Positions 3,085-62,191 of a DNA stretch of 64,000 nt are shown piece after piece (position 1 is the stretch's first letter; each line of letters opens with the position of its first letter). The notes beneath the pieces are model-generated. The model was not told the origin of the DNA. It worked only from the letters and a program-made list of their open reading frames with translations, and did not search any database. The stretch comes from an uncultured virus (IMG/VR IMGVR_UViG_3300025853_000072) (lineage: Duplodnaviria; Heunggongvirae; Uroviricota; Caudoviricetes; Crassvirales). The position numbers and the translations under genes were made by a program. The DNA is taken from the IMG/VR virus record IMGVR_UViG_3300025853_000072. One strand, given 5' to 3'.

Positions 3085-3564
3085 ATGAATCTGTCAAAAA
3101 ATTTATCTCTAAGGGAAGTCACCAAAAGCCGAACGGCGGTGCGCCTGGGAATTGACAACACACCAGATGACTGGACCATCGAAAATCTACGAGCCGTTGC
3201 AGAGGATATTTTTCAACCTCTGCGCAACGCTTTCGGAACTGCTATATATGTGTCGAGCGGCTATCGTTCGGAGGAGCTCAATGTTGCGATCGGTGGGTCG
3301 AAGCGCAGTCAGCATGTACAGGGCAGAGCTCTTGATCTCGACGCAGACGTATTCGGAGGTTGTACAAACGGTGAGATCTTCCAATACATTCTCAACAACC
3401 TTACGTTTGATCAACTCATTTGGGAGTTTGGTGATCAAGACAATCCTGATTGGGTCCACGTTAGCTATGTGCGCGATGGTCTTAATCGTGGAAGGTGTCT
3501 CAAGGCTTGCCGAGACGATGACGGAAAAGTTTACTACGAACCTATCTTTGGCAAAGGCCTCTAA
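3085..3564 (+). CDS. Endolysin, peptidase M15 family (Zn D-Ala-D-Ala peptidase fold)
   Basis: SSGYRS, SQH-x6-D and WVHVS motifs. Confidence 0.9.
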   Translation: MNLSKNLSLREVTKSRTAVRLGIDNTPDDWTIENLRAVAEDIFQPLRNAFGTAIYVSSGYRSEELNVAIGGSKRSQHVQGRALDLDADVFGGCTNGEIFQYILNNLTFDQLIWEFGDQDNPDWVHVSYVRDGLNRGRCLKACRDDDGKVYYEPIFGKGL

Positions 3565-8913: not shown

Positions 8914-8987
8914 GCACCTGTAGCTCAACGGGATAGAGCAGCGCACTTCTAATGCGCAGGTTCGGGGTTCGAGTCCCTGCGGGTGTA
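8914..8987 (+). tRNA. tRNA-Arg, anticodon TCT (8948-8950), CCA not encoded
   Basis: Acceptor GCACCTG/CGGGTGT; D-arm GCTC..GAGC; anticodon arm GCGCA-CTTCTAA-TGCGC; T-arm CGGGG-TTCGAGT-CCCTG. Confidence 0.95.
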
Positions 8988-21287: not shown

Positions 21288-22160
21288 ATGGATCCTAATA
21301 AGAAATTTTTACACTTCAACCCTGACGAAGGGGATTCTGAAGGTGGAGGCAGTCAGCAAAATGCAGTCACAGTACCTGTGTCAACTTTTGCGGGGATGGA
21401 AACTACTACGGCGTCTAACTTGAGAATGTTTTTCAAGGAGTCTGTTGAGACTGATACTTTGGATCTAACTCTTTTGAGGACATCTGGCAGCAACCCAAGA
21501 GATTTGATGGAGCACATTGTTAATGAGATTAACTTCTCTAACAATGCAGTAATAACAATCGCTGATGATTTTACTGAGGAAACAATTCACCCTGACGTCA
21601 AGCAGATGACAGGTGTTGAATTTGCAGCTCACTCTCAAATTGTTTTCTCAAAAAAAGTTACTGCAATTTCAGACAACATCAATAGCTCAGGAGCCGACAT
21701 CACAACATCTGGTCGTATTGGTAATTACAACTCTGAAGTAGTTACTACGATTCTTATTGACTTTACAGATGGGCCTCTGCACTCTAGCGCTGTGGGTGAC
21801 CAAGTCATTGGAGAAGAGAATGGAACAGACTGCAGGATCACTCTTGTAAACAAGGCCAAAAACGGAGTGATCTATCGAGGCGAAATGATTTGCATCAAGC
21901 CGCTTACTGGAGGAGACGATGTGATAGAGTTGGCTAGACACGACAGTGAGTCCAAGGGAGAGGGAGAGGGATCAGGTCTGACTACGGTTGGTACTGCTCT
22001 TACTGCAGACACTGCTGGTAAGTCTGTTTCTTTTGATGTAAATCAAGCACTTGACGGAAAGTACCTTCATTTGATCCATACGGGCACGTCCCCAGACGGA
22101 GATTACACTGGTGGTCAAATTTTGATTAGACTTTTCGGAGCAAAAGAAGATGCATTGTAA
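21288..22160 (+). CDS. Virion protein, KFLHF/PVS family with C-terminal extension
   Basis: 290-aa ORF. Confidence 0.7.
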   Translation: MDPNKKFLHFNPDEGDSEGGGSQQNAVTVPVSTFAGMETTTASNLRMFFKESVETDTLDLTLLRTSGSNPRDLMEHIVNEINFSNNAVITIADDFTEETIHPDVKQMTGVEFAAHSQIVFSKKVTAISDNINSSGADITTSGRIGNYNSEVVTTILIDFTDGPLHSSAVGDQVIGEENGTDCRITLVNKAKNGVIYRGEMICIKPLTGGDDVIELARHDSESKGEGEGSGLTTVGTALTADTAGKSVSFDVNQALDGKYLHLIHTGTSPDGDYTGGQILIRLFGAKEDAL

Positions 22161-59672: not shown

Positions 59673-60267
59673 CGGTCTTGAGTTTCTTGGGGATACGGAA
59701 AGCGTGCATGGTGTAGTCGTCGATGTCGATGAAGGCTTCGTTGCGGTAGTACACAGAGGAGATGAACTCACCCATTTGTGCAAGGTTGTGCAGGGATTGG
59801 TGAGGATTGTCGTCGGTGCTGTTGTCCATCACATCGGAGGAGACACGAGCCACAAGTGACATACACAGGGGGTAGTAGTCCCATGCCACGCAGGAATCCT
59901 GTTGGTCCCACGTCAGCCAGATATGCTCGGTGGTGGAAGAGTTCTCGTATCGTGAGGCATCAACCTCGACGATGCGGAACACCTCGACACTCACGTCATC
60001 CATGTACTCTGCAACGTAGTCGTCGTGGTCCATGTCTGAGGGGACGCAAGCCTTGTAGTTGTCAGGGTCGCGGTCCATGGTGACAAAGGTGTGCATCATG
60101 TCACGGCTGTGTTCGATGTTGACACACATCTCGTCCTTGCGGTAGTCGTCGAGGTTTTGCTTGATGTGCTTGATGGCGGACTCTTCGTCGGGGAAGAACT
60201 CGCAAGTGGTGTCGGAGTAGCCTTCGTACAGGCCGCACACTCCGTGGATTACTGCATAAATTTTCAT
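59665..60267 (-). CDS. Acidic hypothetical early protein
   Basis: 200-aa ORF preceded by the TCAAACTTCAATTCA leader. Confidence 0.75.
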   Translation of the reverse strand: MKIYAVIHGVCGLYEGYSDTTCEFFPDEESAIKHIKQNLDDYRKDEMCVNIEHSRDMMHTFVTMDRDPDNYKACVPSDMDHDDYVAEYMDDVSVEVFRIVEVDASRYENSSTTEHIWLTWDQQDSCVAWDYYPLCMSLVARVSSDVMDNSTDDNPHQSLHNLAQMGEFISSVYYRNEAFIDIDDYTMHAFRIPKKLKTDE

Positions 60268-60310
60268 AGGTAGTGAATTGAAGTTTGAAAATGATTGATA
60301 AGTATTGTCT

Positions 60311-60350
60311 GTATATATACTCTCTTCACTCTGTTCAGAGAGATATATAC
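60311..60350 (-). promoter_or_regulatory. Conserved tandem-GA hairpin, copy A
   Basis: Minus strand GTATATAT-CTCTCTGAAC-AGA-GTGAAGAGAG-TATATATAC. Confidence 0.75.
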
Positions 60351-60480: not shown

Positions 60481-60506
60481 GTTACCCCCTCGTGGTCAAA
60501 CTTCAA

Positions 60507-60704
60507 TTAACCAAAGTGAGATGCGTGGTACATGATGTCCTCGTCGTGGAGACGGAAGGACGTTGCATTCTGAAGTGCCGAGTCCCATACGCTGTCGATG
60601 TAGACAGCATACTGCTTGGGTTCGCACTCCACTACCGATGCGTTGTACCCATCATCTGTGAGTACGGAAACGCATTTGTCGCAAAGGTCTTGTGTGATTT
60701 TCAT
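60507..60704 (-). CDS. Hypothetical early protein
   Basis: Start MKITQDL, ATGA-coupled. Confidence 0.6.
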   Translation of the reverse strand: MKITQDLCDKCVSVLTDDGYNASVVECEPKQYAVYIDSVWDSALQNATSFRLHDEDIMYHASHFG

Positions 60705-60954: not shown

Positions 60955-61010
60955 GAGAGGGTTGTATATTACCTTCTTCATAAATTCAGAAGGTATATAT
61001 ACTACCTCTC
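60955..61010 (-). promoter_or_regulatory. Conserved tandem-GA hairpin, copy B
   Basis: Minus strand GAGAGG..GTATATATA-CCTTCTGAA-TTTA-TGAAGAAGG-TAATATAC..CCTCTC. Confidence 0.75.
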
Positions 61011-61012
61011 TA

Positions 61013-61198
61013 TTAAGGTTGGTCGGTGGTGCCGATGCCGAAGTAAGAGAGGTCGAGCCATGTGTCCTCGTTGTACGCCTCGGCAACCATTGAGGTTGCT
61101 TCGTAGTCGCGGCACTCGGAGTAGTAGGCGTACGCCTCGATGAGTTCGTCGTGACAAAGGTCACGGAATGGGTTGAAGTATTCGTTGAAGTTTGACAT
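61013..61198 (-). CDS. Small acidic early protein
   Basis: 61-aa ORF. Confidence 0.6.
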   Translation of the reverse strand: MSNFNEYFNPFRDLCHDELIEAYAYYSECRDYEATSMVAEAYNEDTWLDLSYFGIGTTDQP

Positions 61199-61204
61199 GG
61201 TAAA

Positions 61205-61444
61205 TCACTGATTTTGAATGACTTTGAAGGTTTTGTTCCACACGGTCCACCCCGTGTTTGCGAAGTAGTCCTGTGCCGAGCGGATGGCTTCCTCTTTCGT
61301 GAGAGCCTTGATTTTGTGAGGGCCGCGCCAATCATCGCGGTCCCTCCCGTAGTATACGTAGTACTCGAATGTATGAAGTCCTGCCTTTGCTTTCATGGCT
61401 TCGTAGTGTGTTCCCTTCGCAGGGTAGCGTTCCCAAATGTTCAT
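61205..61444 (-). CDS. Hypothetical early protein
   Basis: 79-aa ATGA-coupled ORF. Confidence 0.6.
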   Translation of the reverse strand: MNIWERYPAKGTHYEAMKAKAGLHTFEYYVYYGRDRDDWRGPHKIKALTKEEAIRSAQDYFANTGWTVWNKTFKVIQNQ

Positions 61445-61869
61445 GATGTTTGATTTTCGGTTTGACGTGCAGGCAACTCGACCTTCGTGGTGGCTCCACC
61501 AACAACGAAGTCGGGGTTGCGTACCTCTGACTGCGCTTGGAAGTCGTAGATGGCGATTTCGTTTCGGTGCTTCGCAAGTTCCAAGGCTACGTACTTGCTA
61601 CGAACCACGTCGGAAACCTCGATGAAGGCCATTCCTGCATCCACCCAGCCCCCGATCACCTGTGTGTCTGGGTCGAGCATCTCTGATGCCATGCTTGTCA
61701 TGGCAAGACAGAACTTATTGAACGAAAGGCTGTCGTTTTCAACGACAAGAGAAGGGACTTCGGTGCCGCCTACTGCGTAGCCACGGCCTGTGAAGGTCTT
61801 TTGGTCAGCGTTTACGCTGAAGCCCTCGCCGTCTTGCAGGGCCATGTAAAGAGATTGCAATGATGCCAT
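61441..61869 (-). CDS. Early protein, possible SAM-lyase-like fold
   Basis: Start ATG 61869 (MASLQSLY); IGGWVD...FIEVS...LA...NEIAIYDF. Confidence 0.65.
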   Translation of the reverse strand: MASLQSLYMALQDGEGFSVNADQKTFTGRGYAVGGTEVPSLVVENDSLSFNKFCLAMTSMASEMLDPDTQVIGGWVDAGMAFIEVSDVVRSKYVALELAKHRNEIAIYDFQAQSEVRNPDFVVGGATTKVELPARQTENQTS

Positions 61870-61888
61870 TGTAAATGAATTGAAGTTT

Positions 61889-61941
61889 GATACAGACACC
61901 CCAAAGGGGTGTTTCGCCTACTCAAGGCTCATCAGTGTATC
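61889..61941 (-). ncRNA. Type I hammerhead ribozyme; predicted cleavage between 61895 and 61894
   Basis: GAUACA-CUGAUGA-GCCU(UGAGU)AGGC-GAAA-CACCCC(UUU)GGGGUG-UC|-UGUAUC: complete core and three perfect stems. Confidence 0.93.
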
Positions 61942-61953
61942 TGTGATTGGATA

Positions 61954-62127
61954 TTACATATCCATCAAATCCTCCAGGGTCATCTGCTCAAGGCAAGACA
62001 TCTCATCCCACGTAGCCGTGGCACGGACTGATTCGAAGGAAAGGTGAGAATCGAGGAGTTCAGCAATCAGCTGAGAACGGACATCAGTGAATGTGTTCAT
62101 GATGAATTGAAGTTTGAAGTTTGACAT
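61954..62127 (-). CDS. Small early protein (start 62127 or 62100)
   Basis: ORF ending 12 nt before the ribozyme. Confidence 0.55.
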   Translation of the reverse strand: MSNFKLQFIMNTFTDVRSQLIAELLDSHLSFESVRATATWDEMSCLEQMTLEDLMDM

Positions 62128-62128
62128 T

Positions 62129-62191
62129 GAGAGGTTCTGTATATATACTCTCTTCACTACGTTCAGAGAGGGTATATATACTAGAACTCTC
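62129..62191 (-). promoter_or_regulatory. Conserved tandem-GA hairpin, copy C
   Basis: Minus strand GAGAGTTCT.GTATATATAC.CTCTCTGAAC-GTA-GTGAAGAGA-GTATATATAC-AGAACCTCTC. Confidence 0.8.

What the first reader, a model, noticed from the sequence alone, without database searches (positions are those of the whole stretch)
61889..61941. Canonical hammerhead ribozyme between two early genes
Seen: complete CUGAUGA / GAAA / GUC core with perfect stems I (6 bp), II (4 bp) and III (6 bp plus the core A-U), on the coding strand, 12 nt after one stop codon. Cleavage would leave a 25-nt leader (UGUAUCAAACUUCAAUUCAUUUACA) on the next gene. Established: hammerheads leave a 5'-OH, which resists 5'-monophosphate-dependent decay. 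Phage hammerheads are known, but their roles are mostly unresolved.
Basis: partly seen in the sequence, partly recalled or inferred. Interest (0 to 1): 0.82.

Follow-up and report, generated by a model that had tools for sequence, protein, structure and literature searches.

The report
Self-cleaving hammerhead ribozyme in phage
A genuine self-cutting RNA (a hammerhead ribozyme) sits between two small genes of an uncultured marine phage and would trim the message so that the next gene begins with a fixed 25-base leader; the kind of element is known, but this family is a clean case for testing what such ribozymes are for.

Summary
On the minus strand, 61941-61889 holds a complete type I hammerhead: CUGAUGA, GAA, A15.1-U16.1, GUC, with stems of 6, 4 and 7 bp. 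It lies 12 nt after a stop codon and 25 nt before the next AUG.

It is not a chance motif. 0 of 300 simulated 64-kb sequences held even a loose hammerhead descriptor. It belongs to a family in marine viral and metagenome contigs with 97 distinct contexts. In that family 99.4-99.8% of helix cells pair, and 11 of 17 and 6 of 17 pairs show compensatory changes.

Rfam does not call it: RAGATH-1-hammerhead scores 33.5 bits against a gathering score of 56.3.

The cleavage site lies 22-28 nt before the first AUG in 64 of 64 metagenome contexts. The leader UCAAACUUCAA also precedes neighbouring genes that follow long hairpin modules. Homologues of the downstream gene carry either a hammerhead or such a hairpin.

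Most likely it processes a polycistronic message of a Shine-Dalgarno-less phage of Bacteroidota, defining the 5' end of the downstream mRNA. Cleavage itself is untested. It is a new member of a known kind and moderately interesting.

The parts
61954..62100 (-). Upstream cistron, 48 aa from ATG 62100, stop TAA 61956-61954. Its C-terminus (...QMTLEDLMDM) is conserved before the ribozyme in many relatives.
   Evidence: no Pfam or PHROG family
61949..61963 (-). Hairpin GGAUAU-GUA-AUAUCC that encloses the stop codon of the upstream cistron, 7 nt before stem I.
   Evidence: Arms covary in relatives (GAGAU/AUCUC, CUGC/GCAG, ACAGC/GCUGU), but a stable hairpin is seen in only 15 of 31 distinct upstream contexts.
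61936..61941 (-). Stem I, 5' strand (GAUACA)
61929..61935 (-). Conserved core C3-A9 (CUGAUGA)
   Evidence: invariant except N7
61916..61928 (-). Stem II (GCCU/AGGC) with loop UGAGU
   Evidence: 3 of 4 pairs have compensatory changes
61913..61915 (-). Conserved core G12 A13 A14
61896..61912 (-). Stem III (A15.1-U16.1 plus 6 bp) with loop UUU
   Evidence: 5 of 7 pairs have compensatory changes
61894..61895 (-). Predicted scissile bond: after C17 (61895), before U1.1 (61894)
   Evidence: Position in the hammerhead consensus. Cleavage was not tested.
61889..61894 (-). Stem I, 3' strand (UGUAUC)
61870..61894 (-). 25-nt leader left on the 3' product. It contains the motif UCAAACUUCAA (61880-61890) and has no Shine-Dalgarno sequence.
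   Evidence: (unpaired in the MFE fold)
61441..61869 (-). Downstream cistron, 142 aa, function unknown. It is followed by overlapping or abutting cistrons of 79 aa (61444-61205) and 61 aa (61198-61013).
62129..62191 (.). Long imperfect inverted repeat with two GTATATATAC palindromes, upstream of the 48-aa cistron and its own copy of the leader (62107-62122). It is a putative promoter or processing hairpin that starts this transcription unit.
   Evidence: (I1)

Best explanation
This is a functional type I hammerhead self-cleaving ribozyme inside a polycistronic message of an uncultured marine phage whose host is probably a member of Bacteroidota (Flavobacteriia-type).

The proposed transcription unit runs leftward. 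It starts at the hairpin module near 62190-62130, then carries the 48-aa gene, the ribozyme, and the 142-, 79- and 61-aa genes. Once stem I, the core and stems II and III have been transcribed, the RNA folds and cuts itself after C61895. This step is inferred from the class, not shown here.

The ribozyme body, with a 2',3'-cyclic phosphate, stays on the 3' end of the upstream 48-aa message. The downstream message is released with a 5'-OH and an unstructured 25-nt leader without a Shine-Dalgarno sequence (UGUA-UCAAACUUCAA-UUCAUUUACA-AUG).

The same leader motif, at the same 21-24 nt from the AUG, heads the neighbouring genes that follow long hairpin modules. The ribozyme therefore most likely serves to give an internal cistron the same defined 5'-proximal leader as the other units, uncoupling its translation or stability from the upstream gene.

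Odds: real self-cleaving ribozyme about 0.9; 5'-end or leader definition as its purpose about 0.6.
For: Shown by sequence: the complete core and three helices are present, and the native fold is the hammerhead with a free leader.

Not chance: 0 of 300 simulated windows hold a match, and there is a single strong hit in the window.

Relatives:
- A covariance model found 49 hits in 77 sources. These give 32 distinct sequences, 99.4% of 515 cells paired, 11 of 17 pairs with compensatory changes, and slid-partner controls of 28-51%.
- A separate metagenome set gave 82 hits and 49 distinct sequences, 99.8% paired, with slid controls of 28-54%.

Fixed geometry:
- ATG lies 24-29 nt after the cut in 35 of 39 distinct viral contexts.
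- The first ATG lies 22-28 nt after the cut in 64 of 64 distinct metagenome contexts, 60 of them at 25-27 nt, and the ORF stays open in 64 of 64.

Leader shared with units that lack a ribozyme: exact AAACTTCAA copies on the gene strand lie before the ATGs at 60267, 60928, 62100 and 62985, and the same holds in four related genomes.

Interchangeability, in 12 loci encoding relatives of the 142-aa protein:
- a hammerhead abuts the leader in 8 (one of them with an insertion in stem III);
- a long hairpin module plus the same leader stands there in 4.

Host translation: only 3 of 41 gene starts have a Shine-Dalgarno-like 4-mer, against 15% of random 17-mers. A T9SS sorting domain (PF18962) and flavobacterial-phage relatives point to Bacteroidota.

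Literature (passages read):
- Their role in processing polycistronic transcripts has been suggested but not established (PMC6765202).
Against: No cleavage, RNA-end or expression data could be obtained.

Limits of the covariation evidence:
- The alignments used for pair counts were fitted to the model.
- The sequences were retrieved with patterns that fix the core and parts of stem I.
- In the metagenome set one covariation measure is no better than shuffles (further pair types: 11 against a shuffled mean of 10.7; 319 of 500 shuffles reach it), and only 6 of 17 pairs show double changes.

No loop-loop or pseudoknot tertiary contact, usually needed for fast cleavage at physiological Mg2+, could be found.

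The transcription start sites, and hence the claim that primary transcripts begin near the leader, are inferred only. The hairpin modules may be promoters, RNase III-type sites or terminators.

The stop codon lies 12 nt from stem I, and in L002 a small ORF runs into the ribozyme. Ribosomes could therefore interfere with folding.
Confidence: 0.62

Rival explanations
1. The purpose lies upstream. The ribozyme makes the 3' end of the 48-aa message, leaving stems II and III and a 2',3'-cyclic phosphate as a protective 3' cap. It thereby sets different lifetimes for the two halves of the operon. The fixed distance to the next AUG is secondary.
For: In a type I hammerhead the whole ribozyme body remains on the 5' product. 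The upstream small gene and its C-terminus are conserved before the ribozyme in many relatives. Differential stability after ribozyme processing has been suggested for bacterial ribozymes (PMC6765202, passages).
Against: The distance to the downstream AUG is far more constant (60 of 64 contexts at 25-27 nt) than the distance to the upstream stop, which ranges from abutting stem I to lying inside the ribozyme. Upstream genes also differ among contexts. This reading is not exclusive of the main one.
Confidence: 0.2
2. It is a translation-coupled switch. Ribosomes finishing the upstream ORF, whose stop codon sits in a hairpin loop 12 nt from stem I, unfold or permit the ribozyme. Cleavage, and hence downstream expression, would then report on upstream translation.
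For: The stop codon sits in the loop of a covarying hairpin in four sequence variants. In L277 a stop abuts stem I, and in L002 a 33-codon ORF ends inside loop II.
Against: The hairpin is found in only 15 of 31 upstream contexts and is no more stable than control coding sequence (Wilcoxon p 0.70). The spacing between stop codon and ribozyme is not conserved.
Confidence: 0.1
3. It is a member of the Rfam RAGATH-1 hammerhead family, in which a 5' hairpin is an integral domain of the ribozyme.
For: RF03152 is the best Rfam match. It aligns end to end (model positions 1-77) and includes the upstream hairpin (E 7e-4 on 451 nt).
Against: The score of 33.5 bits is well below the gathering score of 56.3, and E is 0.1 on the whole window. 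None of 15 relatives' loci matches RF03152 at E <= 0.01. The hairpin is absent from about half of the contexts. Stem II here is 4 bp with a 5-nt loop, whereas the model annotates a single pair.
Confidence: 0.08
4. It is a chance motif or an inactive relic.
For: Only that no activity has been measured.
Against: 0 of 300 simulations hold a match. The core is invariant and helices are maintained by compensatory changes across 32 and 49 distinct sequences. Position is conserved in four near-complete related genomes.
Confidence: 0.03

Closest known systems
Type I and type II hammerhead ribozymes of bacteria, prophages and phages (Perreault et al. 2011, PMC3088659; passages read)
   Same: Same catalytic core and three-helix junction. 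Both lie between genes of phage operons, sometimes several per cluster (1-3 per related genome here), and both have been proposed to cut long phage transcripts into single-gene or operon-length mRNAs. The halovirus HF1/HF2 example lies 13 nt before an early-gene start.
   Different: This subfamily is tied to a specific leader without a Shine-Dalgarno sequence, at a fixed 25-27 nt from the AUG. It occurs in phages of a probable Bacteroidota host. No pseudoknot or loop-loop contact was detectable. It alternates with long hairpin modules before homologous genes.
Rfam RF03152, RAGATH-1 hammerhead
   Same: Type I topology, long stem III, and a hairpin 5' of stem I. It is the best-scoring Rfam model.
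   Different: The score is below the gathering score (33.5 against 56.3). The hairpin is not universal in this family. Stem II is longer here. I could not read a description of RAGATH-1: the term is absent from the main text of PMC5737381.
[quoted passage not shown]
   Same: A type I hammerhead with a long helix III sits a few nucleotides upstream of an ORF start. Cleavage creates the 5' end of the translated RNA (7 nt before ORF2 in one fusarivirid).
   Different: Those are eukaryotic RNA viruses and need cap-independent translation. This is a DNA phage of bacteria. A role in translation is only inferred here.
RNase III processing sites between the early genes of phage T7, and the synthetic RiboJ insulator (both recalled, no call)
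   Same: They work alike. An RNA element between cistrons is cut, so that each downstream message has a standard 5' end independent of upstream context.
   Different: T7 uses a host enzyme and RiboJ is engineered. Here the cut would be made by a natural self-cleaving ribozyme. Membership does not apply.

Membership tests
Hammerhead ribozyme class | Conserved core: C3 U4 G5 A6 N7 G8 A9, G12 A13 A14, A15.1-U16.1, H17 | tested here: met
   CUGAUGA 61935-61929, GAA 61915-61913, A61912-U61896, C61895. The core is invariant in 13 aligned relatives except N7.
Hammerhead ribozyme class | Three helices around the core, kept by evolution | tested here: met
   99.4% and 99.8% of cells are paired, with compensatory changes in 11 of 17 and 6 of 17 pairs, against slid controls of 28-54%. 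Caveats: the alignments were fitted to the model, and the retrieval patterns fix parts of stem I.
Hammerhead ribozyme class | G10.1-C11.1 closing pair of stem II and an N-U-H cleavage triplet | tested here: met
   G61928-C61916 (GC in 32 of 32 and 49 of 49 distinct sequences). The triplet is GUC at 61897-61895.
Hammerhead ribozyme class | Site-specific Mg2+-dependent self-cleavage giving a 2',3'-cyclic phosphate and a 5'-OH | not testable with these tools
   No experiment was possible, and RNA reads are not available for this window.
Hammerhead ribozyme class | Tertiary contact between stem I and stem II elements (loop-loop or pseudoknot) for fast cleavage at low Mg2+ | tested here: inconclusive
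   No covariation between loop II and the 12 nt upstream or 24 nt downstream (maximum mutual information 0.26 bits, 97 contexts). The first and last U of loop II and the CA before stem I are conserved.
Type I topology | Stem I open, stems II and III closed by loops | tested here: met
Rfam RF03152 RAGATH-1-hammerhead | Score at or above the curated gathering score (56.3 bits) | tested here: not met
   33.5 bits. No hit in the gathering-mode scan. None of 15 relatives' loci matches at E <= 0.01.
Rfam RF03152 RAGATH-1-hammerhead | 5' hairpin as a constant part of the motif | tested here: inconclusive
   It is present here (61963-61949) and covaries in one subgroup, but it is seen in only 15 of 31 distinct contexts.
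Rfam hammerhead clan CL00010 (Hammerhead_1, Hammerhead_3 and others) | Score at or above the gathering score | tested here: not met
   The best clan member is Hammerhead_3 at 17.1 bits against 48.5. There is no gathering-level hit.

The most novel reading that the evidence does not exclude
The hammerhead and the long inverted-repeat hairpins may be two interchangeable 5'-end-defining parts. Each would place the same leader (UCAAACUUCAA, 21-24 nt before the AUG, no Shine-Dalgarno sequence) at or next to the 5' terminus of each message in this arm. On that reading the phage uses a ribozyme as a stand-in for a promoter or RNase III site, a natural counterpart of the engineered RiboJ insulator. 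The leader would then be a 5'-proximal translation or stability element adapted to Bacteroidota ribosomes, which do not use Shine-Dalgarno pairing. Variants with insertions of roughly 100-130 nt in stem III (L436, L308) could be delayed or regulated versions of the same part.
Probability: 0.3. Interest if true: 0.7.

Novelty: new member of a known kind. Interest (0 to 1): 0.5.

Why it matters
What the many hammerheads of bacteria and phages are for is still open. The reviews I read say their role in mRNA processing has been suggested but is not defined (PMC6765202).

This family gives an unusually constrained case, for four reasons:
- One ribozyme sits per junction, with a cut site fixed at 25-27 nt from the start codon.
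- The conserved leader also heads units that have no ribozyme.
- Natural swaps between ribozyme and hairpin module occur before the same gene family.
- It is abundant in marine metagenomes, with at least 118 stretches in one scan.

That makes a direct test possible: active against dead ribozyme, and ribozyme against hairpin module, in front of a reporter in a flavobacterial host.

Curated Rfam models miss this subfamily at their thresholds, so routine annotation would not report it.

Tried and rejected
**Rfam.** The gathering scan of the window found only a tRNA. Permissive scans gave sub-threshold hammerhead hits only.

**Cultured phages.**
- blastn of 1.7 kb and of the 84-nt element against 50,697 phage records gave no match.
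- The closest cultured relative by primase/helicase is Maribacter phage Panino at 35% identity. It has no hit to my model.
- A loose hammerhead pattern in Panino, phi14:2, phi38:1 and Calle_1 gave matches no more numerous than the reversed-pattern control in most cells. I saw none with hammerhead-like helices by eye, and I did not check stems by program. This is a weak negative.

**Nearest held record.** G001 (50 kb, a fragment) lacks this stretch.

**RNA evidence and earlier findings.** Earlier findings are not open.

**Tertiary contact.** No covariation was found between loop II and the flanks.

**Upstream hairpin as an obligatory domain.** Rejected: 15 of 31 contexts, and no more stable than control coding sequence.

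**Function of the flanking proteins.**
- No Pfam family; PHROGs gave only phrog_17808, of unknown function.
- The 142-aa protein folds confidently (pLDDT 86.3) but has no informative structural match: Foldseek best E 0.057 with TM <= 0.26, and VIA-align best Z 4.1.

**Virion RNA polymerase.** The 2863-aa protein has no PDB sequence match. No DFDxD motif is present in five large ORFs. I therefore do not claim a crAss-type virion RNA polymerase, only a crAss muzzle domain (PF25731, E 1.3e-13).

**Literature.** Four searches found no description of this subfamily or of hammerheads in crAss-like or flavobacterial phages among the listed titles and abstracts. That is not proof of absence.

Full report
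**1. What is there**

The window's right-hand 16 kb is read leftward, with ORFs on the minus strand. On that strand, 61941-61889 reads GAUACA-CUGAUGA-GCCU-UGAGU-AGGC-GAA-ACACCCC-UUU-GGGGUGU-C-UGUAUC.

This is a complete hammerhead:
- all conserved core nucleotides;
- stem I of 6 bp, open;
- stem II of 4 bp with a G10.1-C11.1 closing pair;
- stem III of 7 bp including A15.1-U16.1;
- a GUC cleavage triplet.

The topology is type I. The cut would fall between 61895 and 61894.

The upstream ORF (48 aa from ATG 62100) stops at 61956-61954, 12 nt before stem I. The next ORF (142 aa) starts at ATG 61869, 25 nt after the cut.

The thermodynamic fold of 105 nt reproduces the hammerhead, adds a hairpin around the upstream stop codon (61963-61949), and leaves the leader single-stranded (z -2.36; 5 of 200 shuffles fold as well).

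**2. Chance**

A descriptor scan of my own required the core, GAAA, U-H and three helices. It found this site and no other in the window. It found none in 300 simulated 64-kb sequences of the same dinucleotide make-up, even with relaxed stems.

A covariance model built from relatives scores the site 80.7 bits. The runner-up is 14.6 bits, which is the palindromic stem III read on the other strand.

**3. The curated libraries do not call it**

The Rfam gathering scan returns only a tRNA at 8914-8987. With permissive thresholds the best matches are:
- RAGATH-1-hammerhead (RF03152) at 33.5 bits against a gathering score of 56.3, with E 7e-4 on 451 nt and E 0.1 on the whole window;
- Hammerhead_3 at 17.1 bits against 48.5.

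Across 15 relatives' loci, no hammerhead family matches at E <= 0.01 apart from one cross-reading of a tandem pair.

**4. The genome**

Pfam finds:
- a crAss muzzle domain in a 2088-aa protein;
- LPD38 in a 2863-aa protein;
- a T9SS C-terminal sorting domain, typical of Bacteroidota;
- a BT4734-type primase-helicase;
- both ribonucleotide reductase subunits and a PD-(D/E)XK nuclease.

No DNA match exists among 50,697 deposited phage genomes. By protein, the nearest cultured phage is Maribacter phage Panino (35% identity), followed by Cellulophaga, Flavobacterium and Nonlabens phages.

Gene starts lack Shine-Dalgarno motifs: 3 of 41, against 15% of random 17-mers. They are A-rich instead. This fits what I recall of Bacteroidota translation; I read no paper on that point.

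I call it an uncultured marine phage of a probable Bacteroidota host with crAss-like structural genes. I could not show a crAss-type virion RNA polymerase.

**5. Relatives of the ribozyme**

A contig identical over this stretch (L001) and an 83%-identical relative (L002) were found through the downstream protein. L002 already shows double compensatory changes in stem II, from GCCU/AGGC to GUCC/GGAC.

| Set | Hits | Distinct | Cells paired | Pairs with compensatory change | Slid controls |
|---|---|---|---|---|---|
| Viral loci | 49 in 77 sources | 32 | 99.4% of 515 | 11 of 17 (0 of 500 shuffles reach this) | 28-51% |
| Metagenome loci | 82, window included | 49 | 99.8% | 6 of 17 (2 of 500 shuffles) | 28-54% |

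In the metagenome set the covariation score is 0.237 against a shuffled mean of 0.091 (0 of 500 shuffles reach it).

Results against, or limiting, this evidence:
- In the metagenome set the count of extra pair types is no better than shuffles (319 of 500).
- Both alignments were fitted to the model.
- The retrieval patterns fix the core and part of stem I. The fully free evidence therefore comes mainly from stems II and III, and from the 5' strand of stem I.

Four near-complete related genomes (56-64 kb) carry one to three copies in the same arm of small genes.

**6. The constant feature is the downstream leader**

In 39 distinct viral contexts the ATG lies 24-29 nt after the cut in 35. The four exceptions are a tandem ribozyme, a 19-nt case, a contig end and a mis-parsed insertion variant.

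In 64 distinct metagenome contexts the first ATG lies at 22-28 nt in all 64 and at 25-27 nt in 60. The frame stays open in all 64. That pattern fixed only the first 10 leader bases.

The leader reads UGUAUC-AAACUUCAA, then a U/A-rich stretch, then AC(A/G)-AUG.

The motif is not peculiar to the ribozyme. Exact AAACTTCAA copies on the gene strand also precede the ATGs at 60267, 60928, 62100 and 62985. Each lies 21-24 nt from UCAAAC to the AUG.

Three of these follow long imperfect inverted repeats of about 24 bp that carry GTATATATAC palindromes. The same is seen in the four related genomes. In one of them the hairpin has a different sequence but the same shape.

Because the motif follows a ribozyme where no such module is present, it most likely acts in the RNA, on translation or stability, rather than as part of a promoter. 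This is inference.

**7. Interchangeability**

Twelve viral loci encode relatives of the 142-aa protein.
- In eight, a hammerhead ends right at the leader. Seven are standard. One, L436, has an insertion of about 125 nt in the stem III loop.
- In four (L433-L435 and L440), the same place is taken by a long hairpin module followed by the same leader, with hammerheads elsewhere within 450 nt.

Ribozyme and hairpin module thus replace one another before homologous genes.

**8. Mechanism proposed**

The unit starting at the module 62191-62129 encodes the 48-aa gene, the ribozyme, and then the 142-, 79- and 61-aa genes. The last two are joined by overlapping or abutting start and stop codons. A new module follows at about 61022-60960.

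Self-cleavage would release the three-gene message with a 5'-OH and the standard leader. The ribozyme body would stay on the 3' end of the 48-aa message.

- Shown: sequence, fold, conservation, geometry.
- Inferred from the class: cleavage and end chemistry.
- Inferred from context: the purpose, namely a defined 5'-proximal leader for an internal cistron in a host that does not use Shine-Dalgarno pairing.

Perreault et al. proposed that hammerheads process phage polycistronic RNAs. They showed cleavage of about 2-kb fragments of native polycistronic RNAs during in vitro transcription, and noted a halovirus hammerhead 13 nt before an early gene start (PMC3088659, passages). A 2026 paper reports type I hammerheads just upstream of ORFs in RNA viruses, exploited for translation initiation (PMC13725137, passages).

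For the crAss-like phage phi14:2, early transcripts made by the virion polymerase had no common upstream motif in primer extension (bioRxiv 10.1101/2020.03.07.982082, passages). I did not find hammerheads in phi14:2 with a crude pattern.

**9. What remains open**

- The 5' hairpin covaries where it follows the conserved 48-aa gene, with the stop codon in its loop. It is present in only 15 of 31 contexts, so it is not a constant domain.
- No tertiary contact could be identified.
- The flanking proteins have no assignable function.
- Whether the hairpin modules are promoters, RNase III-type sites or terminators is undecided.

**10. Verdict**

This is a real hammerhead and a new member of a known kind, in a subfamily that curated models miss. 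Its fixed-leader architecture and its natural swaps with hairpin modules make the old question of what phage hammerheads do directly testable. Interest is moderate.

Noticed in passing
window 62129-62191, 60960-61022, 60308-60342 and neighbours (minus-strand genes): Long imperfect inverted repeats of about 24 bp with GTATATATAC palindromes and an outer GAGAG/CTCTC clamp end 4-23 nt before the UCAAACUUCAA leader of three genes. In relatives L310 and L440 the hairpin has a different sequence but the same shape. They are candidates for promoters or for RNase III-type processing sites of this gene arm.
   Followed up: partly
L436 250-422; L308 about 3149-3296: Two hammerheads of this family carry insertions of roughly 100-130 nt in the stem III loop while keeping the core, stems I and II, and the leader. 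The inserts match no Rfam family in L436. They may be delayed or regulated variants.
   Followed up: partly
IMG/VR loci L004-L126: The stem III sequence CGAAACACCC...GGGUGUC is shared by many otherwise different phage hammerheads. Of 122 distinct matches, 40 have the CUGANGA core upstream (type I-like) and 70 downstream (type II-like). Most of the 12 others have variant cores. Outside this subfamily, type I examples often lie 23-47 nt before a Shine-Dalgarno sequence plus start codon.
   Followed up: partly
window 60496-60511 (+ strand): A copy of the leader motif (TCAAACTTCAATTAAC) lies on the opposite strand, antisense to the 3' end of the 65-aa gene (60507-60704) (I7/I8). A terminator-like hairpin with a T-run lies nearby on the minus strand at 60437-60420. 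An antisense transcript is possible; this was not examined.
   Followed up: no
window 61441-61869 (-): The 142-aa protein after the ribozyme has 220 homologues, nearly all from metagenomes including Tara. Its predicted alpha/beta fold is confident (pLDDT 86.3) but has no informative match in the PDB.
   Followed up: yes
L002 2838-2950 (= G004): In the 83% relative, a 33-codon ORF is inserted between the conserved small gene and the ribozyme. It runs into the ribozyme, and its stop codon lies in loop II.
   Followed up: no
window 8914-8987 (+): A tRNA gene (Rfam 65.6 bits) sits among the structural genes. By my reading of the alignment the anticodon is UCU (Arg). ARAGORN was not run.
   Followed up: no
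window, 41 gene starts: Shine-Dalgarno-like 4-mers occur upstream of only 3 of 41 starts, below the 15% seen in random 17-mers. The upstream regions are A-rich, with A the commonest base at -1, -3, -11, -12 and -13.
   Followed up: yes
L242 / L045 / L308 (G002 21595-21800): Two hammerheads stand in tandem with a single base between them. The second is the stem III insertion variant.
   Followed up: partly
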